Made by a program: the position numbers and the translations under genes | DNA from: Eledone cirrhosa | Lineage: Eukaryota | DNA length: 64,000 bases | Direction of reading: 5' to 3' | Assembly: GCA_964016885.1 (NCBI GenBank) | Contig: CAXHJY010001010.1 | Coordinates: 1-64,000 of the forward strand | Part shown: one piece after another, positions 14,378 through 52,419 of the stretch | How positions within the stretch are numbered: the first letter of the stretch is position 1 | How the letters are laid out: every line of letters begins with the position of its first letter | The notes under the pieces: model-generated | What the model saw: only the letters and a program-made list of their open reading frames with translations | Told to the model about the DNA's origin: nothing | Database searches by the model: none

Positions 14378-16933
14378 TATTGGTGGAACACTGGAAGGTA
14401 ATATCCGTAGTGGTAGAGCACTCCGTCCATTGGACGAGTTAGGTAGAAGTGGTTAAACAACAGTTAGTTCACCATACCGATAACAATTATTTCACCTTAG
14501 CAGATCCCCAGCTCGGAATGCGCATGGTTATAGGAACAGGAAGGACAACCGTATGAACGGGCAGGCGCAGAAACCCGGTCACTTCACACAGGCAATACTA
14601 GACTGCGTGCGAGAGGTGTAAGGGACATAACTGCGAAAGTCTGAAATGTTTTTCGGTTGAAAATAAAAATACAAAGAATCAGCCTTGTAGTTATGCAATA
14701 GGTGTTTGGCGACGTGTGGACAACGTGTAAAAAATTCATTTTTCGTGTTTAAGCAATCACTATTGCGTAATCTCTTTAGAGTAGTTATTCGTTTGTCAAT
14801 AGATAAGCCACACGTCGGATTTGCCCTTGCGTATGGCTTGGATATAGTGATGACTTTCCATTGAATGGAGTAGTCTGTACTTGAGTCCTTGTGGGACCAT
14901 ACGTGGCTAGCGAGTTTCGTGGATGAACGTCTGTCCGGATACCTGGAGGTAGACTGGTGTTTCAGGAAACGTTCCTTAAATCGGCCCTCCGCCATGCCCA
15001 CATAGGATTTGACCTCCTGTGGTTCGTTTCGTCGGTTGGAAGTGACGACAGCTTCATAAATTACAGCTGGTGCGTTGCATTGCTGTTGAAGCGGGCAAGT
15101 TTCAGGCTTACGCAAGAGCACCCTGGTGAGGTGTTGCTCCTAGGGCTGCTGGTGATGTGGACCTTCATGTTTTTAGCGCAGGAGTATCCTAGTTTAACTT
15201 TGTGTCGGTTAAAGAGGGATCGGTATTTATGACCTATGGGAAAGTGTCTATCTAAGAGGGCTAGAAATTGTTTTCCTACATTGGTTTTAACGTTGAGTGA
15301 GAAGGGAGGAGAGAACCATATAGATTGTCTATTGTTGCGCTTACTTTTCTTAATGGTGTTGTTGCTAGTGGGAGAGAAAGTGATAGGTTGTGAGAAGCAG
15401 CTGTTAGCCAACGCCGTGTCATAGTAGGGTGCCGCCCTGTCAAAGATAGTCTTATTGGAGGATTGGTTTGAGATTCTAGTACTGATATTTTTAACGAAGC
15501 TTCTAAAAACAGTGGGAGGGTGGCATGAGTCCGTGTGAATGTAATTGAGTTTCTCTTTTAGCTTATTGAAGGGTCTGTGGGTGTGTGTGCGAAGGTCTAA
15601 ATTAATGTCTAAGAAATATACGCTAGAGAGGTTGGTGTCTACTGGTATCCTAAGTCCTAACTCCTTGAAGGTAGAAGCTAAGTCTTTTTTAAACCGGTCG
15701 ATGTCGTGACCACTTTTATGGCTCCATAAAGTCAGTCCATGGTCGCGGTATATTCCCGTGTGGAAGTCTGGAATCTAACACGTAATATGTCTAAGATAAA
15801 TAGGTTAACCAAGTCACATACGTCAGCACTGTCAAACGATCCCATGGAGACGTCGAATAGGTCTGAAGTTGTAAACTTCTTTGCCCAGGCTACTCCGTCG
15901 TTGAAGAGGAGGGTTTTCTGGCAGTGAGCGATGATTTCCCTGTTTAAACCATCGACGGTGGTATAAGTGGTAGCGAAGTCCAACGCTTTGTTTAACAGAG
16001 TCTTTGAGATCGACGGGTAAAAATCGACAATGTCGAACTGTGTGAACTTCGCTTTTTTGGATTTTAAGGAGTTAAACCACTTAATTACGGAGTCGCTGTT
16101 CTCCGACTGGGGCAGGATGGACTTGGTCCTAATGGTCTTAACCGTGTTTCTAAGTATGGCCTTACTGACTAGTCACATATCTGTACGTGCCGGGTTTATT
16201 AGTCTACATGTGAGGTTAGAAGTAAAGTCTACCTTGTGATATTTCAGGATGAGGAACGCCTCCCGCTTAGCTAGAGATTGTATCTTCTTATCCACCTTAA
16301 AGTCGGCGGCAAGTTCCTTGGCTTCTGTATTAATGTCGTCGTAGGCCATAGGGTCAGCTTTCTTATACTTAGAAGTAATAGCGTTATGGGCCAGGTGGCG
16401 GAAAGTGGTGTTGTTGACTTCGTAAATATTATTAGTTTTGTAGGAAAGAACGAATGTGTTATTAGAAGACCTAACTTTCTTAATATTATATCTGAGTTTC
16501 GTTTGACAGGTATTAGTGTGTTTGCGAAAAGAAATAGTAACGACTAAGTCAAGAAGGTCCGTCTCGAAAGGAACAAATTCAGTTACCTTAGGAGGGTAGG
16601 CTCTCAATTTCATGTTGAAGGTGTTGTTGGTGCCTGTAATTTTGCCGTCAAAAGCTAGGGCTCGCCATCTTAAGCGTCTGACGACATCTTCCGCTTTTTG
16701 TAGGAGGAGCTTTTGTTAAGCATTGTTGGAGGGAGTTGGAATGTTCTTCAGGGAGTAATCCAGTTCGTATAAATCAATACTGACGTTTATGAGACGCAAA
16801 ATTGTGTAGGACACGAGGCTATAGAGAGCTCTCTCATGGTAGTAAGCCAAACTCGTACGTGGTGAAGAATCTGCTAAAAGCCAAACTTCTACGTAGTGAA
16901 GAGAATCTGCTGACCGGTGCTGGAGACGTACAT
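14378..16933 (-). mobile_element. Apparently full-length Penelope-like element, family B (RT plus GIY-YIG), frameshifted; first unit of a tandem
   Basis: YSLKNIP N-terminus, FDVSMGSFDSADVCDLV RT motif, WFSPPFSLNVKTNVGKQFL, VIYEAVV...YVGMAEGRFKERF GIY-YIG; terminus tggtggaacactggaagg recurs at 16936 and 27636. Confidence 0.92.
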
Positions 16934-17031
16934 AGTGGTGGAACACTGGAAGGTAATATCCGTAGTGGTAGAGCACTCAGTCCATGGGACGAGTTAGGTA
17001 GAAGTGGTTACACAACAGTTACTTCACCATA

Positions 17032-17071
17032 CCGAGAACAATTGTTTCATCTTAGCGGATCCTCAGCTCGG
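17032..17071 (-). ncRNA. Minimal type I hammerhead ribozyme in PLE family B terminus
   Basis: ccgag CUGAGGA ucc-gcuaa-gau GAAAC aauu GUU cucgg; stem I 5 bp; degenerate copy at 14477-14516. Confidence 0.75.
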
Positions 17072-17949
17072 AATGGGCATGGTTATAGGAACAGGAAGGA
17101 CAACCGTACGAATGCGCAGAAACCCGGTCACTTCACACAGGCAATACTAGACTGCGTGCGAGAGTTGTAAGGGAGATAACTGCGAAAGTTCGAACAGTTT
17201 TTAGGTTGAAAATAAAAATACAAAGAATCAGTCCGGCTCCTTGTAGTTATTCAATAGGTGTTTGGCGACGTGTGGAAACCTGTAAAAAATTCATTTTTCG
17301 TGTTGAGGCAATCACTATTGAGGCAATCACTATTGCGTAATCACTTTAGAATAGTTATTTTTTCGTCAATACATAAGCCACACGTCGGAATTCCCCTTGC
17401 GTATTGCTTGGACTTAGTGATGGCTTTCCATTGAATGGAGTAGTCTGTACTTGAGTCCTTGACCACACGTGGCTCGCGAGTTTCGTGGATGAACATCTGC
17501 CCGGGTACATGAAGGTAGACTGGTGGTTCAGGAAACGTTCCTTAAATCGGCCCTCCGCCATGCCCACATAGAATTTGACCTCCTGTGGTTCATTTGGTCG
17601 GTTGGAAATGACGACAGCTTCATAAATTACAGCTCGTGTGTTGCATTGCTGTTGAAGGGGGAAAGTTTCAGGCTTACGGCAAGAGCATCCTGGTAGGGTT
17701 GTGCTCCTAGGGCTGCTGGTGATGTGGGCCTTCATGTTCTTAGCGCAGGAGTATCCTAGTTTAACTTTGTGTCGGTTAAAGATGGATCCGTATTTATGAC
17801 CCCTGGGAAAGTGTCTATCTAAGAGGGCTAGAAATCTTTTTCCTACATTGGTTTTAACGTTGAGTGAGAAGGGAGGAGAGAACCAGATAATTTGTCTATT
17901 GTTGCGCTTACCTTTCTTAAGGGTGTTGTTGCTAGTGTGGGAGAGTAAG

Positions 17950-17985
17950 GAGCTGAGGATCCGCTAAGGTGAAACAATTGTTCTC
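17950..17985 (+). ncRNA. Minimal hammerhead ribozyme (inverted copy)
   Basis: gag CUGAGGA u cc gcuaa gg u GAAAC aauu GUU cuc. Confidence 0.75.
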
Positions 17986-18017
17986 GGTATGGTGAACTAA
18001 CTGTTGTGTAACCACTT

Positions 18018-18098
<81 letters not shown>

Positions 18099-18339
18099 GA
18101 AAGACGTAAAATAAAAAAATTATAAAAATTAACTTACTTACTAAAATTTCACTCTAACTAATTAGTTTCTGAAAGGGAATAAACATGGTTTCCGAATCGA
18201 ACACATGGAGAAGGCCTTTCGTCATCAGGGAAGTCTATTCTCAGCTAAGTTCCCAGGCAATGCGTGGACACAGGGAACTTATACAAAAATAATTCAGTGG
18301 ATGGAAAAAAGCAAGCGTGGACTAAGTTCCAAGACATTG

Positions 18340-18404
<65 letters not shown>

Positions 18405-23167: not shown

Positions 23168-25295
23168 TTAGGGAGAAGTGTTTAGACGGGGTCCGTATTT
23201 GTTAATAAAGTAAGATTCCTTGCTGATGCGCTGGGTGTGGGTGGCATTATCTTTAAATTTGTATAGGGGAAAGATTCTGAAGTTGGGATGATTTTGGGCG
23301 GCACAGGTATCAATGTGTTCACTCAGTGGTATTTTCCTGTATTCCCGTATTTTACTTTTGGATCTATGGACAATCATGTGTTCGCGGTGGCTGTTTTTGG
23401 TCTGGCCTATGTATTGTTCTCGACAACCTGAGCAAGTTAATACATATATTATATTTTTGATGCGCATGTGAAATTGTGTTTTACTATAAAACGTTGTCCT
23501 TCTTTGAAATAGAATTGCGAACCCTCTATTAGGTTGATGCATATGCCACAGTTGGGTCTATCGCATTTTTTTTACTGTGGGTTCCGTTGTTGTGGTTGGC
23601 AGTACTTTGGCATGTGTTAGGATGTTTTTCATTGACTTAGATTGTCTTTTGCTCTTTATGATATCGTGTGTTCGTAGGATTTGGTTCATTCTATGGTCAT
23701 TTTTCAACACAGGGATGTTCTGGAGGATGGTGTCAAAGGCCTCATTGTTGAGGGGGTTGTGTGTGGAGATGTATGGAAGAGCTTTTAGTTTCGGTTGATT
23801 TACTTTAGGGTGTCTAAGGTCCTGGGTACTGAGTTTAGGGAACGTTGGATTCCATTGTCAATTAGTGATGCAGGGTAGTCCCTGCCTATGAGTGTGTCCT
23901 TTAGTTCTTGTAGCCGTAAATAGCAGGTGTTTTTATTGGAGACTATAGTACATATTCTCTTGGCTAAGTTGTAGGAATATTAATTTTAACGTGTCTAAGG
24001 TGGCAAGAGTTGAAAGGAAGATATTGCTTGGAGTCTGTGGGCTTGTAGTATATGTCTGTTTCTATTTTTTTTGTTATGGATCTTAATGAGGATGTCGCGG
24101 AAGGGGAGTTGTTGATGGCTGTATTCCATCGTGAAGTTAATATTCGTGTTGAGCCCATTTATAAGGGTGTGAAATTCTTTAAGTTTCTCGATGTTTTCGT
24201 GCCAAAGGATGAAGCAGTCATCTAGATATCGCTTCCTGTTCCTTTCTATGTGTAAGTGGAGAGTGTTTCCAAATTTGTTTAGTACTTTAGTGTAGAGGGT
24301 GATTTCCAGGTATCCCATGACTAGGTTGGGATAAGTGGCGGCTGTTTTCGTTCCCATAGCGGTCCCAGATTTCTGTCTGTAGGGTTTGTTATTGAAAACG
24401 AAGTAATTGTTCTCCAAGATAAATTTGAGTCCCTCTATCACGAATTCTTTTCTGATGCGTTGTGGGAGTTCATTGTGGTAATTATCCAGCCAGAATTGGA
24501 TAGCTTCTATTCCTAGGTTGTGGGGGATGTTGGAGTAGAGGTTGACTACATCGAACATCACTAGTAGGGTTTGTTCAGAAAGGGGCATATTAGGGAGGTG
24601 ATTGAGCATATCTTGGTCGTCCCTTATATAGCTTTTGATGTGTTTGAGAAAAGGCTTGAGAAGGGTATCAATGAAGTTGCTAAGGCGGTGGGTTTCGCAA
24701 GCGGGGCCTGCTATTATAGGTCTTAATTTGAGATCATTGGATGAGGGGACATTGATGACTATGTCTGTGGCTTCCTTGCATGCCTTACTTATTAATTCGC
24801 TTTTATGTACTTTAGGGATACCGTAGAAAAGGCTGGATTTACTTGTGAAGTCTGTGATGAAGCTGAATTCCTTGTTAGTGAGTCCTTCTTTGTATTGGTT
24901 GATCAGAGTTTTTAGGTTTCTCATAATTTTCTGTTGATTGTAGTGTTCAGCCTTTTCGTAGTGTTTCGTTTTCCAATGTGGAGAGCGCTAAGTTGATATA
25001 GAATTCTGTCTCCATTAGGACTACTGTACTCCCTTTATCAGCCTCTTTAATTGTAATGGTTCTGTCGGTTTTTAATCTATTTAATTCTTCCCATTCTTTC
25101 TTGTTGAGGTTTGGCTTGTGTTTTTGTCTGTGCAAGTGTTGGTAAGGGAAGTTTGCGATGTGTTCACAGAATTCGTCCAGGATTTTATTTCTACCTTTTG
25201 ATGGGGTGTAATTGCTTCTATTTCTGGCTAATGATTCATCCTCATTGTACTGGTCGAATAGTTCTTCACTGAGTCGTAACTTTCTACAGAAGTCT

Positions 25296-25300
<5 letters not shown>
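23168..25300 (-). mobile_element. 5'-truncated, frameshifted Penelope-like element (Neptune-like), RT plus GIY-YIG
   Basis: FYGIPKVHK, LRPIIAGP, FDVVNLYSNIPH, QKSGTAMGT, RYLDDCF, YKPTDSKQYL, IIYVLTCSGCREQYIGQT. Confidence 0.93.
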
Positions 25301-25343: not shown

Positions 25344-27621
25344 CGTGCTGTAGTTCTTGGAACTTATTCCTGATCCCTCTGATGTGCCTTAGTCTTGCAG
25401 GCTTGCGACAGCATATGGCCTCACGGTCTTATTTGCTTTCTTCTTCTTCAACCTCAAGCGGATTTATCCAACCACGAGATGATGGTCAGATCCGACGTCT
25501 GCCCCTCGGTAGGTGCGAACATCCAAGAGAGAGAAACGCCACCTCATGCCAATACAGATATAATCAATCTCATTCCTGGTGTTGCCATCAGGGGAAGTCC
25601 ATATCATCTTGTGAATCCGCCTATGGGCGAAGAATGATATAGTTATTGGTAGAAGAATGGGGACCAATCGGGAACAGTGGATCAGCAGTACTTTATGGAA
25701 TGTCATTGACGAGAGGAATGATGTTAAGAACAAAAGAGATCAAACCAAATCTCGACAGCAATGGAAGGAAGTGGACAAGGAGTACAGACGTCTTGACAAG
25801 GAAGTAAAGAAGAGCTGTCGAAAAGACAAGCGCCAGTGGTTAGAAGATCGGGCTGCAGAGGCACAAGTGGAAACAGATTGAAATGATTCCAAGACGCTGT
25901 ACCGGATCGTGAGAGCTAACTGGTGGACGAAGTGGAAGCAGTTTGCCAATCAAGAGCAAAGATGCTCAGATGCTTGCAGCCATTGAAGAGCAGCCCCAGA
26001 GGTGGAACGAACACTTTCGTGAGGTCCTCAATCAGCCATCACCCAACACAGGCTTCGAGCTTGTCTGGGAGGAAGCGAGCTACCGGCTGGATGTACAACT
26101 AGACGGCATCACAAGAGCTGAGGTGGCCAAGGCCATCCGCTCCCAAAAGAATAACAAAGCGGCAGGGCTGCATGAGATTCCTGCAGAGCTTCTGAAGCAC
26201 GGCAAGAATGTAATAGAGGAGCAGCTCACCCATTTATGCAATGTGATTTGGCAAGAAGAGGAGGTGCCGGAGGACTGCGGAAATGGAGTGATTGTACCAC
26301 TACCAAAGAAGGGCTGTCTCAGCGACTGCAACAACTATAGAGGGATCACGTTGCTATCAGGGCCAGGGAAGGTATTCTGCACAGGCATCCTGAACCGGCT
26401 GAGAGCAGAAGTAGATCGTCATCTTCGAGACGAACAGGCTGGCTTCCGCAGTGGAAGGTCTTGTTCAGAGCAGATCTTCACTCTCCGAAATATCATTGAA
26501 CAATGTCGGGAGTTCCATAAGTTCCTTGTTGTCAACTACATTGACTTCAGGAAAGCTTTCGACAGTCGTCATCGGAAATCATTGTGGAAGATTGTAAGAC
26601 TCTAGGGTGTCCTAGAGAAATATATTAACATCTTCAGGTCGCTGTACCGACATTCCAGGTGCTGCGTTAGGACAAAGGACGGAAACACGGAAATGTTTGA
26701 CATCTTGACGGGTGTTCGACAAGGCTGCATCCTTTCGCCTTTCCTTTTCCTCATTGTCATCGATTTCATCATGAAGAAGACAATGAGTGACCCTCGTTTT
26801 GGCATCAGTTGGGATGGAAGGAAATTAAGCGACCTGGACTTTGCCGATGACATCGAAGTGATAGGCCATTCCCGAGAAGACCTGCAAGAGATGACAAACG
26901 TTCTAAATGACAATGCAAAGAAAGTTGGCCTGCGCATCAGTTATGAAAAAACCAAGACCATGTCGACAGGTGACCCTCCAAATCTTCCCATCATGGTTGG
27001 TCAGCGTAACATTGAATGTGTAAACCACTTCCAATACCTTCTGACGATGGGGATGCTGAGGTGGATGTGTGCACAAGGCTGGGAAAACAGCGGCGGTCTT
27101 CCAGCGACTCCGTCCGGTATGGTCCAGGTGTTCCATCGGCAACGCAGTCAAATTCCGTGTTTACATGTCCATTGTAGTACCAACAGCGATATATGTCTGT
27201 GAGACATGGAAAAGTACGAAAAGTGTATGTAACAAGCTTGATGTATTCCACCGTCATTGCATTCGGACCATATTGAATATTTCATGGTTAGACGAAGTTA
27301 GCAACGAGGAAGTGATGAGGAGGTCAGGATTGGAGAGGTTAAGGGACATTGTCCGGAAAAGGAGACGGTGGTTCGTGGGCCACATCCTTCGTTTGCCGGC
27401 ACATCGACCTGCTCATATTGCCATGGATTGGGTACCAGAACGTGGCAGGAGAGAACGGGGAAGACCACGAAAAACATGGCGGAGCACATTCAGGGAGGAC
27501 CTGCGGGAGATGGGAATTACCTGGAGAGGTGCTAGAAGGGCCGCCAGTGACAGGATCAAGTGGAGGAAGCTCGTCGCTCAATGTTCCACAAGGGATTGGA
27601 GGAACTAAGATTAAGACTAAG
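25340..27621 (+). mobile_element. RTE-clade LINE with inverted 5' segment, disrupted RT ORF and (CTAAGA/TTAAGA) tail
   Basis: Minus strand 25340-25655 encodes APE end WTSPDGNTRNEIDY...GSDHHLV; plus strand has NYRGITLLS, QAGFRSGRSC, GVRQGCILSP, DFADD, GRPRKTW. Confidence 0.93.
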
Positions 27622-27632
27622 ATATATATATA

Positions 27633-28690
27633 TAGTGGTGGAACACTGGAAGGTAATATCCGTAGTGGTAGAGAACTCCGTCCATGGAACGAGTTAGGTA
27701 GAAGTTGTTACACAACAGTTAGTTCACCATACCGAGAACAATTGTTTCACCTTAGCGGATCCTCAGCTCGGAATGAGCATGGTTATAGGAACAGAAAGGA
27801 CAACCGTATGAACGCGCATGCGCAGAAACCCGGTCACTTCACACAGGCAATACTAGACTGCGTGCGAGAGGTGTAAGGGAGATAACTGCGAAAGTCCGAA
27901 AAGTTTTTAGGTTGAAAATAAAATTACAAAGAATCAGTCCGGAGCCTTGTAGTTATGCAATAGGTGTTTGGCGACGTGTGGACAACGTGTAAAATATTCA
28001 TTTCTCGTATTTAGGCAATCACTATTGCGTAATCTCTTTAGAATAGTTATTCGTTCGTCAATACATAAGCCACACGTCGGATTTCCCCTTGCGTATGGCT
28101 TGGACTTAGTGATGGCTTTCCATTGAATGGAGTAGTCTATACTTGAGTCCTTGAGGGACCATACGTGGCTGAAGGTAGACTGGTGGTTCAGGAAACGTTC
28201 ATTAAATCGTGCCTCCACCATGCCCACATAGGATTTGATCTCCTGTGGTTCGTTTGGTCGGTTGGAAGTGACGACAGCTTCATAAATTACAGCTGGTGTG
28301 TTGCATTGCTGTTGAAGCGGGTAAGCTTCAGGCTTACGGCAAGAGCACCCTGGTGGGGTGTTGCTCCTAGGGCTGCTGGTGATGTGGGCCTTCATGTTCT
28401 TAGCGCAGGAGTATCCTAGTTTAACTTTGTGTCGGTTAAAGAGGGATCGGTATTTATTACCTATGGGAAAATGTCTATCTAAGAGGGCTAGACATTTTTA
28501 TCCTACATTGGTTTTAACGTTTAGTGAGAAGGGAGGAGAGAACCAGATAATTTGTCTATTGTTGCGCTTACTTTTCTTAATGGCGTTTTGCTAGAGGGAG
28601 AGTAAGTGTTAGGTTTTGAGAAGCCGCTGTTAGCCAAAGCCGTGTTATAGTAGGATGCCGCCCTGTCAAAGATAGCCTTATTAGAGGAAA
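27633..28690 (-). mobile_element. 5'-truncated family B PLE (GIY-YIG end and terminus)
   Basis: Copy of 14378-15460; ORF 27934-28395 has VIYEAVV...YVGMVE. Confidence 0.92.
27732..27771 (-). ncRNA. Minimal type I hammerhead ribozyme, intact
   Basis: ccgag CUGAGGA u cc gcuaa gg u GAAAC aauu GUU cucgg; palindromic stem III aacaauuguu. Confidence 0.82.
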
Positions 28691-28693: not shown

Positions 28694-29235
28694 ATGTATG
28701 TATATATACACATACTACTGTACGTCTGTATACATATATGTATGTACGTATACATACTTATATTTAAGTAATAGCCGTACTAAGAGTGAGAAATGAAATT
28801 TCGTTTCATTTTTTTCCATTTATCGTTTTAGGTGCTCCCGGCCGATTAACTCTCTCGATATGCAAATTAGGTTGCACAGCCGTTAATATACATAAGGAAA
28901 GTATATACTTTCAGACGTTCAATCATCTGGCAGGAAGGTATACGGTGCTGACGATAGCTAATAAGCTTGAAACTAGTACATCGTTCATTTGTCAGTGTTG
29001 AACAAAAGGTCAACGATGGTTGCTAAACACTGTACGGCTTAATTCGGGATGTTTGTTTACAAACAAACCGAGCATTATAATAAATGTTCGGTGAATCCAT
29101 ACGTACATATTTATATGTGTGCATGTATGTATATATATACATACTACTGTACGTCTGTATACATATATGTATGTACATATACATACATATATATATATAT
29201 ATATAAATAAATATATATAAATGCACACATACATA
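28694..29235 (+). mobile_element. Non-coding retrozyme-like element, ~429 bp monomer with terminal direct repeat
   Basis: catactactgtacgtctgtatacatatatgtatgtac at 28711 and 29140; HHR inside; same family as 43816-44584. Confidence 0.8.
28942..28984 (+). ncRNA. Minimal type I hammerhead ribozyme
   Basis: acggug CUGACGA u agcu aaua agcu u GAAAC ua GUA caucgu; palindromic stem III acuagu. Confidence 0.88.
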
Positions 29236-33784: not shown

Positions 33785-33796
33785 TATATATATATA

Positions 33797-34701: not shown

Positions 34702-35248
<547 letters not shown>

Positions 35249-36017: not shown

Positions 36018-36026
<9 letters not shown>
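35249..36026 (+). mobile_element. Non-coding TA-flanked element, 533 bp period with ~245 bp direct repeat
   Basis: 35249-35494 repeats at 35782-36026; each repeat contains CTGATGAG. Confidence 0.7.
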
Positions 36027-36070
<44 letters not shown>

Positions 36071-36140
36071 TGTATATAAATATGTATATATATATACATA
36101 TAATACATATGATCAAAAGATGGTTAAATGATTTCCATGT

Positions 36141-36209
36141 ATTTTATTATGCGCATTTCAAAAACAAATATCATCATGCAATAACATTTGTGTTTTCATC
36201 AGATAAAAC
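36141..36209 (-). ncRNA. Type I hammerhead ribozyme in a PLE/retrozyme terminal fragment (36110-36330)
   Basis: guuuuau CUGAUGA aaacacaaaugu...auauuuguuuuu GAAA ugcgc AUA auaaaau; palindromic stem III augcgcau. Confidence 0.85.
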
Positions 36210-36364
36210 AGGAAGACATGATATGAAGGTTTAAAACACTTGTGGATAGTGCAGTTTTAAATCAACATATGAAAAGTAGTTTTAGATTGATGTGTGGAAT
36301 TGGGGAAAAAATTTGTTGAGGGGGGGGGGGGGGAGGATGAAAAAGAGGAGGAGATGAGAGTAAA

Positions 36365-37501
36365 ATGTGGAGGGGGAGGAGTATAATGAGGAAGGATAAG
36401 ATAGGAGGAGAGATGGGTGATAGAGAGAGAGAGAAACACACAATGGAAAGCATCCAGCAAATAGCAAACTCCATCCACCAGAGCATTAGAGTTACTATAG
36501 ACTACCCAAGTAAACACCCCAACCATCGATTACATGTACTAGACACAGAGCTCTGGTTAGATACCATTAACAACAAAAAACAAATCCTCCATTCCCATTA
36601 TGCCAAACCCATGACTTCCAAACATCTGATCCACCGAAACTCGGCCGTGTCGGACCATACCCAAATCAACATACTGATTGCGGATTTGGTACGGGTGATG
36701 AGAAATGTGTCCCGCATGTGCAACCCCGAAGAACTAGAGAGACACATACAACACTTCATCCACCGTATGCAGTTCTCTGGCTACAATCAGAGAGATAAAA
36801 TCAGAGTGTATAGAGGAGCCAGAACCAAATGGGAAAAAATGGTAAATAATGACATAAATGGGACCTGCCCCTTGTATAGGAGCAAATTTTGGAATAGAAT
36901 AGAAAGAACTAGGAACAAGGCTAATAGAATAAACTCATGGTATGATAGCAATAAATACCAGAGTGTAATGTTCATCGATACAACCCCTAGAGGTGAATTA
37001 GCTTACAAATTTAGAAGGGCCCTAAATAGACATAAACTCAATATTAAGATAGTAGAAAGACCAGGTACCTCCGTAAAAACACGTATTAGCAAGACATACC
37101 CTTTTCAAAGACCCTCATGTATAGATAAGAAATGTATAACCTGTAAAATAAGCCCACATATTAACTGTAAAACTAGAAATGTAGTGTATAGCATAAGATG
37201 TACTGAAGGACAATGTAGAGACAAAAATATAGTGTACATAGGTGAGACAGCCCGTAGTGTAGGTGAACGGATAAATGAACACTGGCGAGACCTTCAAGAT
37301 AATAAAGAATCATCTGTACTCTACCAACATGCTAAAATAGTACACAAGGGTAAATTAGAGAACATAGAAATAAAAATAGAATCTACACACAGAAAAAACG
37401 CAATGGTTAGACAAATTACAGAGGCAATAAACATAAAAGAATTACAACCAAAATTAAATAGAAAATATGAGTGGAACAGCAACATCACAACTTACAATTA
37501 A
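36365..37501 (+). CDS. Uninterrupted C-terminal half (RT thumb, Cys linker, GIY-YIG) of PLE family A; 5'-truncated, start not genuine
   Basis: LHVLDTELW, HYAKPM, RMQFSGY, FIDTTPRGEL, KIVERPG, CxxxxCxxC, VVYSIRC...YIGETARSVGERINEH, RQITEA, LNRKYEW. Confidence 0.88.
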   Translation: MWRGRSIMRKDKIGGEMGDREREKHTMESIQQIANSIHQSIRVTIDYPSKHPNHRLHVLDTELWLDTINNKKQILHSHYAKPMTSKHLIHRNSAVSDHTQINILIADLVRVMRNVSRMCNPEELERHIQHFIHRMQFSGYNQRDKIRVYRGARTKWEKMVNNDINGTCPLYRSKFWNRIERTRNKANRINSWYDSNKYQSVMFIDTTPRGELAYKFRRALNRHKLNIKIVERPGTSVKTRISKTYPFQRPSCIDKKCITCKISPHINCKTRNVVYSIRCTEGQCRDKNIVYIGETARSVGERINEHWRDLQDNKESSVLYQHAKIVHKGKLENIEIKIESTHRKNAMVRQITEAINIKELQPKLNRKYEWNSNITTYN

Positions 37502-37701
37502 GGACAAGATGAAAACACACACACACATAGAACAAACAACCAACCAGTAACATGTAAATAAACAAATAAATAAATGAACATAAACACACACAGACACCCG
37601 GATGTGGCGCATGCGCAGACTGAGCACACAACACACACACAGAAACAAAATGGCGTAGGACAGAACAAAAGAGAGGCACAGAAACAAAGAAAGGAATCCC
37701 C

Positions 37702-37746
37702 AGTCACTGAAGAGGTCACAGAGTGTGTGACGAAAGAACTATGACT
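37702..37746 (+). ncRNA. Minimal hammerhead ribozyme in 3' UTR of PLE family A (one extra core nucleotide)
   Basis: aguca CUGAAGA g gucaca gagug ugugac GAAA gaa CUA ugacu. Confidence 0.72.
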
Positions 37747-37938
37747 ATATATAAAGAACTATCTGGTTGTGGAACCAACCAACCAACCAGAAATTTATAA
37801 ATTTATTATAATAAATTGAAGTGAAAGCAACTGGTGCGTGTGTTTCTTATTGGCAACATGACCCTCCCAAAGTATAACAATATCGGTTTCAACACACGAT
37901 TTCAGATAAAGAATCTTGCTAAACAAATTCAGAAACGA

Positions 37939-37939
<1 letters not shown>

Positions 37940-37970
<31 letters not shown>

Positions 37971-39822: not shown

Positions 39823-39895
<73 letters not shown>

Positions 39896-39916: not shown

Positions 39917-39967
<51 letters not shown>

Positions 39968-43169: not shown

Positions 43170-44584
<1,415 letters not shown>

Positions 44585-44610
44585 CACACACACACGCACA
44601 CACACACACA

Positions 44611-44654
<44 letters not shown>

Positions 44655-45046
44655 CGGCTGGAGAGAAATGAAGCAAGTATGCTCCGTTGGATGTGTAATG
44701 TCAATGTGCGTGAACGACCAAGCATAGACGAGATGAGAAAGAAACTGGGTATAAGAGGGATAAGTTGTGGTGTGCAGGAAAGAAGGCTGAGATGGTATGG
44801 ACATGTGATATGCATGGAGCATCACCGCTGGTTAAAGGCGTGCGAAGAAATCCCAGTAGAAGGAAGACGCAGTAGATGTAGGCCACGTAAAGCATGGGCG
44901 GAAGTGGTGAACCCAGACCTCAGATCGCTGTAACTCAACGAGGAGAGGACGAAGGCCCCTGACAAGTGGAGTGCTACTGTGCTGAATAGGACCCGTCCAA
45001 CCCTTGTAAGCAGGGAAAAGCGGATATAAAATGATGATGATGATGA
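44655..45046 (+). mobile_element. RTE LINE 3' end (also at ~46706-47100 and ~48691-49085)
   Basis: RLERNEASMLRWMC...ERRLRWYGHV...CRPRKAW; (GAT)n tail. Confidence 0.9.
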
Positions 45047-45049
45047 TAC

Positions 45050-45189
<140 letters not shown>

Positions 45190-45273
45190 GTTATTCCGGG
45201 TTGAATCGGAGGTAACCACAGTAAGTAAGGTACTCAATACATTGCAGAGTATAAAAGTTTTAATATAGATGAG

Positions 45274-45320
45274 ATTCTACAGGACTAGAACTGTTTCATT
45301 CTTTAGAAATCATCAGGAAT
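45274..45320 (-). ncRNA. Type I hammerhead ribozyme in 135 bp module, copy 1 of 5
   Basis: auuc CUGAUGA u uucu aa agaa u GAAAC ag uucuaguc cu GUA gaau. Confidence 0.88.
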
Positions 45321-45321
45321 T

Positions 45322-45367
<46 letters not shown>

Positions 45368-45368
45368 C

Positions 45369-45427
<59 letters not shown>

Positions 45428-45541
45428 ATATGTATATATATATATATGTATATATACGTTATTCCGGGTTGAATCGGAGGTAACCACAGTAAGTAAGGTA
45501 CTCAGTACATTGCAGAGTATAAAAGTTTTAATATAGATGAG

Positions 45542-45588
45542 ATTCTACAGGACTAGAACTGTTTCATTCTTTAGAAATCATCAGGAAT
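45542..45588 (-). ncRNA. Hammerhead ribozyme, copy 2 of 5
   Basis: Identical to 45274-45320. Confidence 0.88.
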
Positions 45589-45589
45589 T

Positions 45590-45669
<80 letters not shown>

Positions 45670-45670
45670 C

Positions 45671-45716
<46 letters not shown>

Positions 45717-45723
45717 CATATAA

Positions 45724-45754
<31 letters not shown>

Positions 45755-45767
45755 TATATATATATAC

Positions 45768-45821
<54 letters not shown>

Positions 45822-46359
45822 ATATATATATATATATATGTGTGTATATATATATATATATAAATGGAAAAGAATGAAACGAAATTTCATTTCTCAGTCT
45901 TAGTACGACTGATACTTAAATGTAAGTATGTATGAATACGTACATACATATATGTATACAAACGTACAGTAATATGTATATATATACATACATGCACACA
46001 TATATATATTTGTACGTACGGGTTTACCGAACATTTATTATAAAGTTCGGTTTGTTTGTTTGTAAACAAACAAACAGCCCGAATGACGCTTAAAGTTCGG
46101 TAAACCCATACGTACATATATATATGTTTGCATATACGCCTGTATACATATATGTATGTACATATACATACATACTTACATTTAAGTATCAGCCGTACTA
46201 AGAGCGAGAAATGAAATTTCGTTTCATTCTTTTCCATTTATCGTTTTCGGTGAGCCCGGCCGACTAACTCACTCGATATGCAAATTAAGCTGCTCAGCCG
46301 TTAATATGCATGTGGAAAGTATATACTTTCAGACATTCAATCATCTGGCAGGAAGTTAT

Positions 46360-46402
46360 ACGATGCTGACGATAGCTAAAAAGCTTGAAACTAGTACATC
46401 GT
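46360..46402 (+). ncRNA. Minimal hammerhead ribozyme (28942 family), intact
   Basis: acgaug CUGACGA u agcu aaaa agcu u GAAAC ua GUA caucgu. Confidence 0.88.
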
Positions 46403-46615
46403 TCATGTGTAAGTGTTGAACAAAAAGGCGACGATGGTTGCCTGAACACTGTAGGGCTTAATTCGGGCTGTTTGTTTGTTTACAAACAAACAAACCGAAC
46501 ATTATAATAAATGTTCGGTAAACCCATACGTACATATATATATGTGTGCATCTATGTATATATATACACTACTGTACGTCTGTATACATATATGTATGTA
46601 CGTATAAATACATAC

Positions 46616-46706
<91 letters not shown>

Positions 46707-47101
46707 CGGCTGGAGAGAAATGAAGCAAGTATGCTCCGTTGGATGTGTAATGTCAATGTGCGTGAACGACCAAGCATAGACGAGATGAGAAAGAAACTGG
46801 GTATAAGAGGGATAAGTTGTGGTGTGCAGGAAAGAAGGCTGAGATGGTATGGACATGTGATATGCATGGAGCATCACCGCTGGTTAAAGGCGTGCGAAGA
46901 AATCCCAGTAGAAGGAAGACGCAGTAGATGTAGGCCACGTAAAGCATGGGCGGAGGTGGTGAACCCAGACCTCAGATCGCTGTAACTCAACGAGGAGAGG
47001 ACGAAGGCCCCTGACAAGTGGAGTGCTACTGTGCTGAATAGGACCCGTCCAACCCTTGTAAGCAGGGAAAAGCGGATATAAAATGATGATGATGATGATA
47101 C

Positions 47102-47142
<41 letters not shown>

Positions 47143-47145
47143 ATG

Positions 47146-47176
<31 letters not shown>

Positions 47177-47177
47177 G

Positions 47178-47225
<48 letters not shown>

Positions 47226-47309
47226 GTTATTCCGGGTTGAATCGGAGGTAACCACAGTAAGTAAGGTACTCAATACATTGCAGAGTATAAAAGTTTTAAT
47301 ATAGATGAG

Positions 47310-47356
47310 ATTCTACAGGACTAGAACTGTTTCATTCTTTAGAAATCATCAGGAAT
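47310..47356 (-). ncRNA. Hammerhead ribozyme, copy 3 of 5
   Basis: Identical to 45274-45320. Confidence 0.88.
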
Positions 47357-47357
47357 T

Positions 47358-47455
<98 letters not shown>

Positions 47456-47569
47456 ATATGTATATATATATATATGTATATATACGTTATTCCGGGTTGA
47501 ATCGGAGGTAACCACAGTAAGTAAGGTACTCAGTACATCGCAGAGTATAAAAGTTTTAATATAGATGAG

Positions 47570-47616
47570 ATTCTACAGGACTAGAACTGTTTCATTCTTT
47601 AGAAATCATCAGGAAT
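47570..47616 (-). ncRNA. Hammerhead ribozyme, copy 4 of 5
   Basis: Identical to 45274-45320. Confidence 0.88.
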
Positions 47617-47617
47617 T

Positions 47618-47663
<46 letters not shown>

Positions 47664-47664
47664 C

Positions 47665-47714
<50 letters not shown>

Positions 47715-47721
47715 CATATAA

Positions 47722-47752
<31 letters not shown>

Positions 47753-47765
47753 TATATATATATAC

Positions 47766-47825
<60 letters not shown>

Positions 47826-48336
47826 ATATATATATATATATAAATGGAAAAGAATGAAACGAAATTTCATTTCTCAGTCTTAGTACGACTGATACTTAAA
47901 TGTAAGTATGTATGAATACGTACATACATATATGTATACAAACGTACAGTAATATGTATATATATACATACATGCACACATATATATATTTGTACGTACG
48001 GGTTTACCGAACATTTATTATAAAGTTCGGTTTGTTTGTTTGTAAACAAACAAACAGCCCGAATGACGCTTAAAGTTCGGTAAACCCATACGTACATATA
48101 TATATGTTTGCATCGCCTGTATACATATATGTATGTACATATACATACATACTTACATTTAAGTATCAGCCGTACTAAGAGCGAGAAATGAAATTTCGTT
48201 TCATTCTTTTCCATTTATCGTTTTCGGTGAGCCCGGCCGACTAACTCACTCGATATGCAAATTAAGCTGCTCAGCCGTTAATATGCATGTGGAAAGTATA
48301 TACTTTCAGACATTCAATCATCTGGCAGGAAGTTAT

Positions 48337-48379
48337 ACGATGCTGACGATAGCTAAAAAGCTTGAAACTAGTACATCGT
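48337..48379 (+). ncRNA. Minimal hammerhead ribozyme (28942 family), intact
   Basis: Identical to 46360-46402. Confidence 0.88.
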
Positions 48380-48590
48380 TCATGTGTAAGTGTTGAACAA
48401 AAAGGCGACGATGGTTGCCTGAACACTGTACGGCGTAATTCGGGCTGTTTGTTTGTTTACAAACAAACAAACCGAACATTATAATAAATGTTCGGTAAAC
48501 CCATACGTACATATATATGTGTGCATCTATGTATATATATACACTACTGTACGTCTGTATACATATATGTATGTACGTATAAATACATAC

Positions 48591-48691
<101 letters not shown>

Positions 48692-49086
48692 CGGCTGGAG
48701 AGAAATGAAGCAAGTATGCTCCGTTGGATGTGTAATGTCAATGTGCGTGAACGACCAAGCATAGACGAGATGAGAAAGAAACTGGGTATAAGAGGGATAA
48801 GTTGTGGTGTGCAGGAAAGAAGGCTGAGATGGTATGGACATGTGATATGCATGGAGCATCACCGCTGGTTAAAGGCGTGCGAAGAAATCCCAGTAGAAGG
48901 AAGACGCAGTAGATGTAGGCCACGTAAAGCATGGGCGGAGGTGGTGAACCCAGACCTCAGATCGCTGTAACTCAACGAGGAGAGGACGAAGGCCCCTGAC
49001 AAGTGGAGTGCTACTGTGCTGAATAGGACCCGTCCAACCCTTGTAAGCAGGGAAAAGCGGATATAAAATGATGATGATGATGATAC

Positions 49087-49155
<69 letters not shown>

Positions 49156-49271
49156 ATATGTATATATATATATATATGTATATATACGTTATTCCGGGTT
49201 GAATCGGAGGTAACCACAGTAAGTAAGGTACTCAGTACATTGCAGAGTATAAAAGTTATAATATAGATGAG

Positions 49272-49318
49272 ATTCTACAGGACTAGAACTGTTTCATTCT
49301 TTAGAAATCATCAGGAAT
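49272..49318 (-). ncRNA. Hammerhead ribozyme, copy 5 of 5
   Basis: Identical to 45274-45320. Confidence 0.88.
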
Positions 49319-49321
49319 TTG

Positions 49322-49381
<60 letters not shown>

Positions 49382-49384
49382 TAT

Positions 49385-49564
<180 letters not shown>

Positions 49565-49567
49565 ATA

Positions 49568-49785
<218 letters not shown>

Positions 49786-49883
49786 AATGAAGTATTTCCG
49801 TCGGAAGGTACAGGAATAAAAGAGTGCTCTATGTAGGCTACAGAGCTTATTAGTTATGTAATAAACAACATAAGATAATTATT

Positions 49884-49942
49884 TAATTTACCAGTGGTTT
49901 CTTGAAGACAGGTGTTGTATCTGTCTTCGGTCGTCAGAATGA
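49884..49942 (-). ncRNA. Hammerhead ribozyme, partly degenerate, in an inverted segment upstream of a PLE fragment
   Basis: ucauu CUGACGA cc gaagacag...cugucuuc aa GAAAC cacug GUA aauua. Confidence 0.65.
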
Positions 49943-49999
49943 ATAAAAAAACATGGTGTTTTTATTAAATATGGATTTGAAAGTAAAATTTAGGAAATA

Positions 50000-50930
50000 T
50001 GAAATTGGGGCTGAAAGAGACGGGCGAAATTGCAACACCAATTGGGAAGATCTTCTTTAGTCTTCACGATAAAATTTCCCACCCCAACACCGCTACCACA
50101 ATATCAACAGAAACATTATTAAAGTTTCCTACAGCACTACACCCGATTTGTACAAAACATTGCTTCATCTAACAACAGAAACTCCTCTCTAACAGAACAA
50201 ATAACAACGATATTGGTGGTGAGCAAACTAGGAGTTGTAACTGTCCGGATAGATAATCGTGCCCCCTCAACAATAGATGCTTAGAATAAAACGTGGTCTA
50301 CCAGGGCAATGTGAGGACAGAAAACTCCATCAAGGCCTACATCGGATTAACCACCTGCGATTTTAAGACCCGCTATTACCAACACCAACATACATTTAGA
50401 AACCCGGCTCAGCGACACGCGACAGCACTTTCTGGTCATATTGGGGACCTTCAAGACAACAATATTACTTACTATCTAAGTTGGAGCATACTTTCCAAGG
50501 AAAAATCTTACATGGGAGGATGCCGTCCATGCAATTTATGCTTGGAGGAAACGATCCTGATGATGTTTGCAAAGGAAAGGACCAACTCTTAAAAAAAGGA
50601 TAAACTTGTTACCTCGTGAAAACACAGAATACATAAGACATATCTTATATTGAAACCCCCTCACGACCCGGCTGGGTAGACCTCGGCTGTATCTCTTTCC
50701 TATTTACAAACTAAGATAGAGGAAAGCCCAAGCATACTTAGGTAGAAGTGACATTTTTTTCTTTTCTTTTTCTTCGTTAGTTACACACTCTAATTAAACT
50801 TACGTGGATCTTTGCATATCTACATTATTATATCAGTTTCCATTCTTCTTTAGGTTATCCCGAATTTGTTCACTCTTGTTAAATATACATAGTACCGGCT
50901 GAACACGTAGCCATGTTCTTTTTTTTTGGG
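50000..50930 (+). pseudogene. Degraded 5'-truncated PLE GIY-YIG region (related to families B and C) plus 3' UTR
   Basis: VVYQGNV...YIGLTTCDFKTRYYQH...ATALSGHI...CNLCLEE; upstream NRNIIKVSYS. Confidence 0.85.
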
Positions 50931-51409
50931 GGGGGGGGGGGTATAATTATAAAAGATAATACTAGTAAATTACTGCATTGAGGTGCCGTTCCAGAATATT
51001 AGAGTGAGTGATAACTAAATTCTATTTTTTAGGAATTTAATTAGTATTAATATCTATATGCTTTGCTCTTTAGCAAACTGTTAGACCTGGCATACTCACT
51101 TTCACTCTACAACACTCCTTGATTCTCACATGCTGATTTTACCCTCATTAGTGATAGTTGTAAAGAATTCTCTCTTAACGCATGAGCGGCCTGGCATCCA
51201 CAGGTCAGAATGTCATCTTACTCCCTCCCCATTGTTATACAGGCCAATTCAGCCCCCACCTCCCACCACGATGAAGGAATTGAACCATGTACATGACATC
51301 CCCAAATCATTGACCACTCCCCGTGACAGACAAGAGAAACAACATTTTTTAGGATTGTTTGATTTGATACTTCTACTTTGTTTTGATTGCGTACCCATAT
51401 ATGGACTGT

Positions 51410-51506
51410 ACTCCTGATAAGTTCAGCTAGGTCTCTGTGGTCCTAATACTACTGGTTTAGTTCGGATCTAGCTGTCGAAATGTCTGGTGCTCACCTGTCA
51501 GGGTCC
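51410..51506 (+). ncRNA. Degenerate hammerhead-like motif at the end of a TA-terminated fragment
   Basis: CUGAUAA g..cagcuagguc...gaucuagcug uc GAAA...GUC; stem I mismatched; layout resembles 21220-21313. Confidence 0.4.
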
Positions 51507-52419
51507 TAACTCTTTTCCTATATATATATGTATATATATAATGATTCGTACACTGAAATCAATATAATGCTACTGCATGTTTCATGATTCAACTCCAGCC
51601 AAGAAACCTAAAGTAGTGTTTTAATGTTTAGAATGTCTAATTTATAATAAATTAGCTCTACTTTTTACATAGTGCTTTCTGTTTAGTTTCTTGCTACATA
51701 CATGCATGCATACATACATGCTGGCTGAAAACTCTGCTAAGAGTATTGTAATCGCTTGTCAGATTATAGTGTTTGGTGCACTTTGAAGTTACAGCTAGCC
51801 ATACGATGCTGTAACATATCCTGAACAAGCAATACCTGTATTTTGAAGGATTTTTTAAGGGCAAAAGGTCTTGCACGCGACCAATCCCACTCTCTGAGTA
51901 TTGAAAACACTAACTGCAAAGTAGAACTGGTCAACATCATCGGATGCTTCCAAAGCCACAGGTTTTTTTTTTTCAGAGTTTCCCTCTCTTAGAAAGGTGT
52001 TGTGACACCAGCTGGAGGCCTTTCATTCCCAGATGAAAAAATAAAAGTACAATTTGGATGGCCATTGACTCTGCTGAGTTCCTCCGCCCTTTGCTGGCTC
52101 TTGCATTTCATCCCGTAGGGTGTCCAAATATCACCCTCCTCACCAAGCAAGCTTGATGGGGTTCCCAGTTTAGTCACTGACAACCCGACCATGAGACAGG
52201 TTGTACTGGGTTACAAGCTACCAGTAGAACTCAAGAGCGACCGACGTACATACATACATACACACATATTTATGCTGCATTTCATTGTTGGTCATGCTTA
52301 CTGTAAAGTTGTAGGTTCTTCATTTGTTGAGATTAAGTATCTTTTTTTTTTTTTTAACTCTTTAAGTGCTAGTCTTGTTTTTCGGTATTTTACATGATAT
52401 TTTTGGGTATATGATAAAA

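What the first reader, a model, noticed from the sequence alone, without database searches (positions are those of the whole stretch)
14378..51520. Dense hammerhead-ribozyme system: several retrozyme-like RNA element families side by side with candidate Penelope helpers, all in (TA)n tracts
Seen: about 25 CUGANGA...GAAA...NUH motifs, most with correctly paired stems I-III, in about 12 unrelated sequence contexts. At least five sit in non-coding units (monomers ~260-268, 429, 466, 706 and 717 bp) with tandem or terminal direct repeats. Others sit in termini of GIY-YIG PLE families or orphan terminal fragments. Established: PLEs carry minimal HHRs in their pLTRs, and non-LTR retrozymes are HHR-bearing non-coding repeats that yield linear and circular RNAs and are thought to use PLE machinery. 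Inference: this is a diverse, possibly undescribed set of retrozyme families with large monomers that use (TA)n tracts as landing sites, with candidate helper RTs next to them.
Basis: partly seen in the sequence, partly recalled or inferred. Interest (0 to 1): 0.9.

Follow-up and report, generated by a model that had tools for sequence, protein, structure and literature searches.

The report
Penelope and retrozyme pile-up in microsatellites
This stretch is a pile of separate jumping elements, some protein-coding and several non-coding, that carry predicted self-cutting RNA motifs and end in the same AT repeats; it is a dense sample of something estimated to occur about once per 10,000 bases across this animal's genome, not one linked system.

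Summary
The motifs are real: 13-15 complete type I hammerheads of the Penelope (PLE) kind lie in 14378-51520, against about 0 in shuffles. Five closed, non-coding, head-to-tail families carry one (429, about 490, about 528, 706, about 720 bp). A sixth (533 bp) has only half a core. Each is dispersed genome-wide with PLE-type ends at (TA)n.

The 260-268 bp 'monomer' is not a retrozyme. It is the last 135 bp of a coding Hydra-type PLE plus (TA)n, locally duplicated. No unit shares sequence with a neighbouring PLE, so 'helpers next door' is unsupported.

The window is not a special system: 87 sampled tiles give about 0.8-1.1 hammerheads per 10 kb, or about 245,000-325,000 genome-wide. After collapsing duplicates the window is within range (P about 0.09).

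Retrozymes of 51-972 bp, their PLE origin and (TA)n targeting are in print. The scan already noted other retrozyme families of this kind on other DNA of this genome. Verdict: new members of a known kind. Cleavage and circles are untested.

The parts
14374..18018 (-). Hydra-type coding PLE (PLE1): broken ORF in four pieces (16715 to 14579), upstream pLTR 16929-17949, inverted end 17950-18018; hammerheads at 17066 (-), 17953 (+) and a decayed one near 14510
   Evidence: ORFs with a CxCx5C linker and an RWR motif, compared with the Hydra description; repeats
18098..18342 (-). 3' fragment of a non-coding tandem family (period 528 bp elsewhere); hammerhead at 18228 with 50-nt helix II and a stem I mismatch in this copy
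   Evidence: three intact cores 528 bp apart in L299 and a tandem junction in L240
20166..21145 (-). non-coding unit of about 490 bp (467 here), 1.3 units plus inverted arm; intact hammerhead at 20331, decayed copy near 20910 (+)
   Evidence: 2512 first-look candidates; tandem and inverted copies; longest open frame 107 aa
21210..22191 (-). 3' UTR and terminus of a Hydra-type PLE family, with a U3-A8 core variant hammerhead near 21307
   Evidence: matches the 3' UTR after the L260 ORF; TTGAGAA core in 5 of 9 family motifs
23168..25299 (-). frameshifted PLE with RT and GIY-YIG; no hammerhead found beside it
   Evidence: Pfam GIY-YIG E=5e-4 and RVT_1 E=1.5e-4, both below the curated cut-off
27621..28688 (-). 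second, truncated PLE1 copy with intact hammerhead at 27766
   Evidence: 92-93% identical to PLE1; descriptor
28694..29200 (+). 429-bp non-coding unit (H), 1.2 units; hammerhead at 28948
   Evidence: 1901 candidates; tandem and inverted copies; 9 loci in 870 kb sampled; circular fold z -6.2
32952..33785 (+). 706-bp non-coding unit, 1.2 units; hammerhead at 33402 with 50-nt helix II, predicted cut after 33473
   Evidence: 4289 candidates; longest open frame 67 aa; compensatory stem I change
33797..34706 (+). 717-723-bp non-coding unit, 1.3 units; hammerhead at 34402 with 95-nt helix II and palindromic loop III, predicted cut after 34515; this copy starts within 2 nt of the previous cut
   Evidence: 4113 candidates; array of about 9 units on C5; fold z -3.9
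35240..36027 (+). 533-bp non-coding tandem unit with PLE-type ends but only half a core (CTGATGA at 35417 and 35950)
   Evidence: 3460 candidates; no downstream GAAA in 0 of 18 copies; CTGA[TC]GA kept in 70-87% relatives
36100..36320 (-). orphan terminus with intact hammerhead at 36202, likely of a coding Hydra-type PLE
   Evidence: 2 of 6 background copies have a Hydra-type ORF 945-1258 nt upstream on the same strand
36341..37940 (+). 5'-truncated copy of a young, abundant coding PLE (CX4CxxC linker); hammerhead at 37707; the end runs 28 codons into its own ORF start
   Evidence: 42,830 candidates, 115 scored at 95-100% identity, open frames up to 1239 aa
39990..43171 (-). truncated Hydra-type PLE (ORF 42187-41351) with a 900-bp inverted 3' UTR; hammerheads at 40172 (-) and 43070 (+)
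43814..49785 (.). local 2-kb unit repeated three times: 429-bp family with inverted arm (hammerheads at 44322 [G12 lost], 46366, 48343), a LINE 3' fragment, and 135-bp PLE ends in (TA)n
   Evidence: 95-100% identity between repeats
   Evidence: long copies run upstream through about 2 kb of simple-repeat 3' UTR into a GIY-YIG C-terminus
49786..49990 (-). orphan terminus with near-intact hammerhead at 49937; coding status uncertain
   Evidence: 2436 candidates; 1 of 20 loci has a Hydra-type EN upstream on the same strand
50030..50720 (+). decayed Hydra-type PLE fragment; core at 50557 not resolved as a hammerhead
   Evidence: tblastn E=3e-70 to the L260 ORF
51395..51520 (+). repeat terminus with a decayed hammerhead-like core (CTGATAA) ending at (TA)n
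   Evidence: sequence; matches other loci at 76-89%

Best explanation
The region is a nested pile-up of independent insertions, coding Penelope-like retrotransposons and at least five non-coding hammerhead-bearing tandem families (retrozyme-type), likely all written into (TA)n tracts by PLE enzymes acting in trans. SHOWN: each family is dispersed genome-wide, has variable 5' ends, one or two fixed 3' ends at (TA)n, inverted arms and more-than-unit length. The non-coding units close on themselves with no ORF. A coding PLE in the window has the same geometry. INFERRED: (1) the GIY-YIG endonuclease nicks (TA)n; (2) the freed end anneals to a short internal TA-rich site on the RNA, 90-310 nt downstream of the predicted cut, and primes reverse transcription; (3) the template is often an uncut multimer or a ligated circle, since about half of copies run through the cut site; (4) the hammerhead, acting as a dimer through its palindromic loop III, defines unit-length RNA; (5) each insertion leaves (TA)n on its flanks, which attracts the next one. 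Later local duplication multiplied one 2-kb block.
For: Genome copies and ends. At the fixed ends of the tandem units and at the inner ends of the coding PLEs, the element's own sequence continues with ATAT, TTAT or TATA-like bases, for example the two ends of the coding PLE at 37883 and 37940. Copies crossing the cut: 15 of 30 (706 bp) and 18 of 30 (720 bp); an array of about 9 units. Stems covary: 706-bp stem I is TGTCTC/GAGATA in 10 and TGTTTC/GAAACA in 8 of 28 copies. Relatives at 75-78% identity keep the core with changed stems and a changed palindrome, GATC to GGCC. Circular folds of three monomers give z -5.7 to -8.0 against 12 crude shuffles. Literature: PLE partial tandems, inversions, tails and (TA)n bias (PMC8557442); dimeric minimal hammerheads and the circular-template proposal (PMC4209133); retrozymes as PLE derivatives (10.64898/2026.07.22.740005).
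Against: No cleavage or circle was tested. No coding partner was found for any non-coding unit in 1.98 Mb of fetched DNA (0.07% of the genome, biased to the queried families). No family-wide A-to-G excess in five families (p 0.14-0.85). The pile-up of 5' ends just after the cut is seen for the 720-bp family (12 of 30 within 57 nt, none in the next 130 nt) but not for the 706-bp family. 5 of 20 long 720-bp copies do end inside the ribozyme. In the 2026 preprint 8 of 9 tested dimers did not cleave. The 533-bp family spreads with the same footprint without a complete hammerhead, so the ribozyme may be dispensable. Pfam does not recognise the Hydra-type or the 1238-aa proteins; their PLE assignment rests on visible motifs and end structure.
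Confidence: 0.8

Rival explanations
1. A linked local system: the retrozyme families sit beside their own helper PLEs and are co-transcribed or co-mobilised.
For: The window holds 3.5 strict hammerheads per 10 kb against 0.82 in the background; P(>=13 in four tiles) = 0.006.
Against: After collapsing local duplicates 8 remain, P = 0.09. There is no sequence shared between units and neighbours. Orientations are mixed. Other copies have unrelated flanks. The neighbouring ORFs are broken.
Confidence: 0.05
2. The non-coding units are dead-end internal deletions of PLEs, copied from read-through multimeric transcripts. The hammerheads are inherited and barely cut, and no circular RNA is made.
For: PLE-type minimal hammerheads cleave poorly in vitro (PMC4209133); 8 of 9 Xenopus dimers were inactive; the 533-bp family lacks a full ribozyme; half of the copies cross the cut site.
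Against: Compensatory stem changes within and between non-coding subfamilies imply selection on the fold after the ORF was lost; monomers fold far better than shuffles; 720-bp copies tend to start just after the cut.
Confidence: 0.3
3. The tandem units are satellites or minisatellites spread by DNA-level processes (unequal crossover, Helitron or eccDNA rolling circle), not by reverse transcription.
For: Local DNA duplication is real in 43.8-49.8 kb; the 2026 preprint allows local amplification.
Against: Fixed 3' ends with variable 5' ends, inverted arms, and two alternative ends as in the coding PLE; most loci hold only 1-2 units on many chromosomes.
Confidence: 0.07

Closest known systems
Metazoan non-LTR retrozymes (Cervera and de la Pena 2020, PMC7229834; Li, Clavereau and Pollet 2026, 10.64898/2026.07.22.740005)
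   Same: Non-coding head-to-tail units with one type I hammerhead each, GC under 45%, short palindromic helix III, U-U mismatch at the base of helix II (as in axolotl HHR_Amex2), strongly folded monomers, and co-occurrence with PLEs.
   Different: Monomers of 429-720 bp exceed the 150-450 bp of the 2020 paper but fall within the 51-972 bp of the 2026 preprint. The hammerheads are the PLE minimal type with helix II inserts of 14-95 nt, and no loop-loop contact was identified. Most loci hold 1-2 units with PLE-type inverted arms. RNA was not tested.
Hydra-clade and Neptune/Nematis-type EN+ PLEs (Craig et al. 2021, PMC8557442)
   Same: C-terminal GIY-YIG, CxCX5C or CX2-5CxxC linker, hammerhead in the pLTR, (TA)n insertion, partial tandems, inversions and a tail.
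   Different: Tails here are about 57-130 bp rather than 30-40 bp; some 3' UTRs are 1-2 kb and full of simple repeats. No tree was built, so clade names rest on linker motifs.
Non-autonomous Chlamys PLEs such as MRC1 (PMC8557442)
   Same: Non-coding elements forming pLTRs and multicopy head-to-tail insertions.
   Different: Those generally match an autonomous family at the 3' end and most Chlamys lack hammerheads; no matching partner was found here.
Minimal hammerheads of metazoan PLEs (Cervera and de la Pena 2014, PMC4209133)
   Same: Short helix I, extra base at the start of helix II, palindromic helix III, U3-A8 core variant, many families per genome, mostly single truncated copies.
   Different: Counts there are about 2,000-9,000 per genome; the estimate here is 245,000-325,000, with a different descriptor.

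Membership tests
non-LTR retrozyme | type I hammerhead in each unit | tested here: met
   Met for the 429, 490, 528, 706 and 720 bp families
non-LTR retrozyme | type I hammerhead in each unit (533-bp family only) | tested here: not met
   0 of 18 copies have GAAA downstream of the core; this family is not filed as a retrozyme
non-LTR retrozyme | head-to-tail tandem units, dimers to multimers | tested here: met
   Closed junctions in all five families. Two or more full cores in one array were seen for 720 bp (C5 array) and 528 bp (L299); partial tandems of 1.2-2.x units in the others
non-LTR retrozyme | head-to-tail tandem units (260-268 bp unit only) | tested here: not met
   Tandem only in the window's own duplication; it continues into a coding PLE elsewhere
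non-LTR retrozyme | no protein coding | tested here: met
   Longest stop-to-stop frames 67-107 aa in the family majority sequences; not computed for the 528-bp family
non-LTR retrozyme | canonical hammerhead with loop 1-loop 2 tertiary contact (2020 definition) | tested here: inconclusive
   No Rfam hammerhead match; the motifs resemble the PLE minimal type, which the 2026 preprint accepts
non-LTR retrozyme | self-cleavage and linear plus circular unit RNAs in vivo | not testable with these tools
   Needs bench work or raw RNA reads
non-autonomous PLE derivative | PLE insertion footprint (fixed 3' end, 5' truncation, inversion, tail, microsatellite target) | tested here: met
non-autonomous PLE derivative | terminal homology to an autonomous PLE | tested here: inconclusive
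   None in the window or in 1.98 Mb of fetched DNA; the sample is too small to exclude it
Hydra-clade PLE (coding neighbours) | C-terminal GIY-YIG with CxCX5C linker, hammerhead, (TA)n target | tested here: met
   ORF text compared with section 11 of PMC8557442
Hydra-clade PLE (coding neighbours) | placement in the Hydra clade by RT phylogeny | not tested
   No reference PLE proteins were on hand; no tree was built

The most novel reading that the evidence does not exclude
This genome holds a quarter to a third of a million Penelope-type hammerheads in dozens of families, about 20 times denser than the axolotl and more in total than any count in the papers read. Coding and non-coding families share one geometry, so all are copied from ribozyme-defined RNA circles primed at internal TATA sites by nicked (TA)n. 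That would make this animal the best system for testing the circular-template model of PLE and retrozyme transposition, and would give it a large, diverse pool of 430-720 nt ribozyme circRNAs.
Probability: 0.3. Interest if true: 0.7.

Novelty: new member of a known kind. Interest (0 to 1): 0.4.

Why it matters
The role of hammerheads in Penelope elements, and whether Penelope enzymes copy retrozyme circles, are open questions (PMC4209133, PMC7229834, PMC8557442). This genome supplies many families, including a young coding one with open frames of 1238-1239 aa, whose ends share one geometry and give exact predicted cut and priming sites to test. The window itself is an ordinary, somewhat dense sample. 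The genome-wide load (about 80-110 hammerheads per Mb) is the more notable result; I did not find it in print.

Tried and rejected
(1) Rfam: no match at gathering score. The E-value scan was swamped by miRNA models on (TA)n and only 150 of 292 rows were shown. Three targeted scans gave no ribozyme family.

(2) Sequencing runs: no RNA holder listed. Three unlaid runs of one study hold 0.33-0.36 of the words; not used.

(3) A-to-G editing scars, a lead from earlier finding e1-8803865: not seen family-wide in five non-coding families or the coding control.

(4) Helper search: no shared ends. The 'U10' hits came from coding flank included in my query, not from the unit.

(5) Pile-up of 5' ends at the cut: present in one family, absent in the other. 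A first version mis-scored one copy with an internal deletion; one search corrects it.

(6) Type II or type III permutations and an alignment fold for the 533-bp half core: no conserved structure. The alignment had 6 rows, 2 of them unrelated, so this is weak.

(7) The apparent hot spot of fold-backs at the start of the 135-bp end is partly a query artefact, because the fold-back creates the best-matching bases.

(8) Pfam gave nothing for most PLE fragments or for the Tc1/mariner-like ORF at 18936-19901 (the mariner label is my reading of motifs).

(9) A genome-wide count for Schistosoma was sought and not found in the passages read. I recall it to be high per Mb, so no density record is claimed.
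Full report
SETTING. The window is the first 64 kb of an 85,830-bp contig (C1037) of a 3.0-Gb animal assembly. No call names the organism. Earlier scan notes call it a cephalopod, which fits the microsatellite load but is unverified.

OBSERVATION. In 14378-51520 there are 33 CTGANGA cores, against 13.3 +/- 3.5 in 200 shuffles. 13 form complete type I hammerheads under a strict descriptor, against a mean of 0.015; 15 pass a relaxed one. Adding near-intact and variant-core family members gives about 25 in 13-15 contexts, by my reading. The folds are of the PLE minimal type described in PMC4209133 (parts 1-2 of 4 read): helix I of 4-8 bp, an unpaired base or U-U at the start of helix II, a short palindromic helix III, and a U3-A8 variant. 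Single-motif folding z-scores are mostly unremarkable; only 2 of 12 are below -2. Rfam does not match them.

NON-CODING FAMILIES. Genome searches score only the best 40 candidates, so candidate numbers are not copy numbers. The 706-bp unit has 4289 candidates, the 720-bp unit 4113, the 533-bp unit 3460, the 490-bp unit 2512 and the 429-bp unit 1901. In 20-30 loci per family the flanks are unrelated apart from other repeats. The units join head to tail, with open frames of at most 67-107 aa, 5' ends vary, 3' ends fall at one or two fixed sites before (TA)n, and inverted arms are common in most families. One locus holds about 9 units. A fragment at 18098-18342 belongs to a 528-bp tandem family. 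Cores are intact in 21 of 28, 17 of 20, 16 of 19 and 17 of 20 non-identical copies, and in 0 of 18 for the 533-bp family. Stem I of the 706-bp family shows a compensatory switch in 10 versus 8 of 28 copies. Relatives at 75-78% identity keep the core with altered stems. As circles, three monomers fold 5.7-8.0 SD better than 12 crude shuffles; the 533-bp unit does not.

THE 260-268 UNIT IS NOT A RETROZYME. Only 135 bp is element. In 30 loci it is tandem only in the window. Walking upstream leads through about 2 kb of conserved simple-repeat sequence to the C-terminus of a GIY-YIG ORF with a CxCx5C linker, the mark of Hydra PLEs (PMC8557442, section 11 read). Its five copies, and three copies of the 429-bp unit, lie in a 2-kb block repeated three times at 95-100% identity.

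CODING NEIGHBOURS. These are Hydra-type PLEs at 14374-18018, 27621-28688, 39990-43171 and 50030-50720, a CX4CxxC-linker PLE at 36341-37940, and another PLE at 23168-25299. All are broken or truncated here. The 36341 family is young and very abundant: 42,830 candidates, 115 scored at 95-100% identity, open frames up to 1239 aa. None shares sequence with the non-coding units in the window or in 1.98 Mb of fetched DNA. That sample is 0.07% of the genome, so helpers remain unidentified rather than excluded.

IS THE WINDOW SPECIAL? I took 87 tiles of 10 kb at round coordinates on the large contigs (88 asked, 1 absent). They hold 71 strict hammerheads in 30 sequence clusters, against 0, 0, 0 in shuffles. 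That is 0.82 per 10 kb, or about 244,000 genome-wide (bootstrap 162,000-341,000). The relaxed descriptor gives 95 (null 1, 1, 0), about 325,000, plus 16 U3-A8 motifs (null 2, 4, 3). The window's 13 is in the upper tail (P 0.006), but 8 after collapsing local duplicates is not (P 0.09). (TA)8+ covers 6.0% of the region against 4.0% in the first 28 tiles. Published counts in the papers read, made with other descriptors, are 126,247 for the axolotl (genome 28 Gb), over 6000 for a coral, about 5000 for a mussel, and 4,000-9,000 minimal motifs for coelacanth and Xenopus.

MECHANISM. Shown: at the fixed ends of the tandem units and at the inner ends of the coding PLEs, the element's own sequence continues with TA-rich bases. 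The coding PLE ends 57 bp apart inside its own first 28 codons, downstream of its hammerhead. Ends lie about 90-310 nt after the predicted cut in the 490, 720 and 706 bp families. 15 of 30 and 18 of 30 copies anchored at the 3' end run upstream through the cut (these sets include the window's own copy and a few two-armed insertions counted twice). Inferred: a nick in (TA)n primes at an internal TATA-like site of an uncut multimer or circle, as proposed in PMC4209133 and PMC7229834 (Discussion read). Evidence for cleavage in vivo is mixed. In the 720-bp family 12 of 30 copies start within 57 nt after the cut and none in the next 130 nt, but the 706-bp family shows no such step, and 5 of 20 long 720-bp copies end inside the ribozyme. 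No family-wide editing scars were found.

WHAT IS KNOWN. Non-LTR retrozymes are described in PMC7229834 (passages, Results part 1 of 3, section 15 and Discussion read). The 2026 preprint 10.64898/2026.07.22.740005 (parts 1-3 of 5 read) reports monomers of 51-972 bp, links them to PLE pLTRs, and found 1 of 9 dimers active. PMC8557442 (passages and section 11) covers (TA)n bias, tails, inversions, non-autonomous head-to-tail PLEs and half-core motifs. PMC13282606 (passages) lists 31 recently active PLE families in Octopus vulgaris and does not contain the word ribozyme. PMC6155905 and PMC8490949 were read as passages only. A search for hammerhead ribozyme with octopus returned 5 papers, 4 listed, none on this subject by title and abstract start except the PLE paper. 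The scan has noted other families of this kind in this genome many times (1242 notes fit, 8 shown), one note on the 429-bp unit, and no look-alike for the 720-bp unit.

VERDICT. These are new members of a known kind in an ordinary, somewhat dense pile-up. The genome-wide load and the shared end geometry are the parts worth following. Interest 0.4.

Noticed in passing
L154 (G000:C5:33610114-33614172): One of 30 copies of the coding PLE carries 19 private A-to-G changes against 1 T-to-C, 18 of them within about 250 alignment columns: a likely hyper-edited RNA fixed by reverse transcription.
   Followed up: partly
window 35240-36027 and relatives in L003, L024, L091, L112, L120, L250, L349: A superfamily of 500-530 bp tandem units (70-87% identity) keeps GCGA.GAA about 23 nt upstream of an invariant CTGA[TC]GA, with no downstream GAAA; it resembles the half-core motifs reported for Naiads, or is an unrecognised RNA motif.
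   Followed up: partly
L252, L271, L293, L320, L242, L306: Several families use the U3-A8 core variant, some with repeated copies in one tile; about 45,000 genome-wide by extrapolation.
   Followed up: partly
window 45188-45322; L034-L060: Many short copies of this PLE end fold back at nearly the same base inside stem I of the hammerhead; partly a query artefact, but the site recurs in about 20 of 30 loci.
   Followed up: no
L255-L261: A coding Hydra-type PLE carries about 2 kb of (TA/CA)-type simple repeats in its 3' UTR, conserved between copies, so it spreads its own kind of target sequence.
   Followed up: partly
L263:448 and 914 (C1037 beyond the window): Two further intact hammerheads 466 bp apart lie on the same contig; possibly the 467-bp family of earlier finding e1-8803865, not checked.
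   Followed up: no
L298:8750-9700: A 311-bp tandem array with identical hammerheads and an opposed arm turned up in a random tile, matching the period of the family in earlier scan notes.
   Followed up: no
window 18760-20062, 13531-14346, 25913-27608, 38525-40054: A Tc1/mariner-like element (my reading of motifs) and three LINE RT fragments (Pfam RVT_1) are interleaved with the PLEs.
   Followed up: no
window 2920-3301 and 6646-7075: More termini of the coding PLE at 36341, including a near-perfect palindrome around (TA)n at 6651-6838.
   Followed up: no
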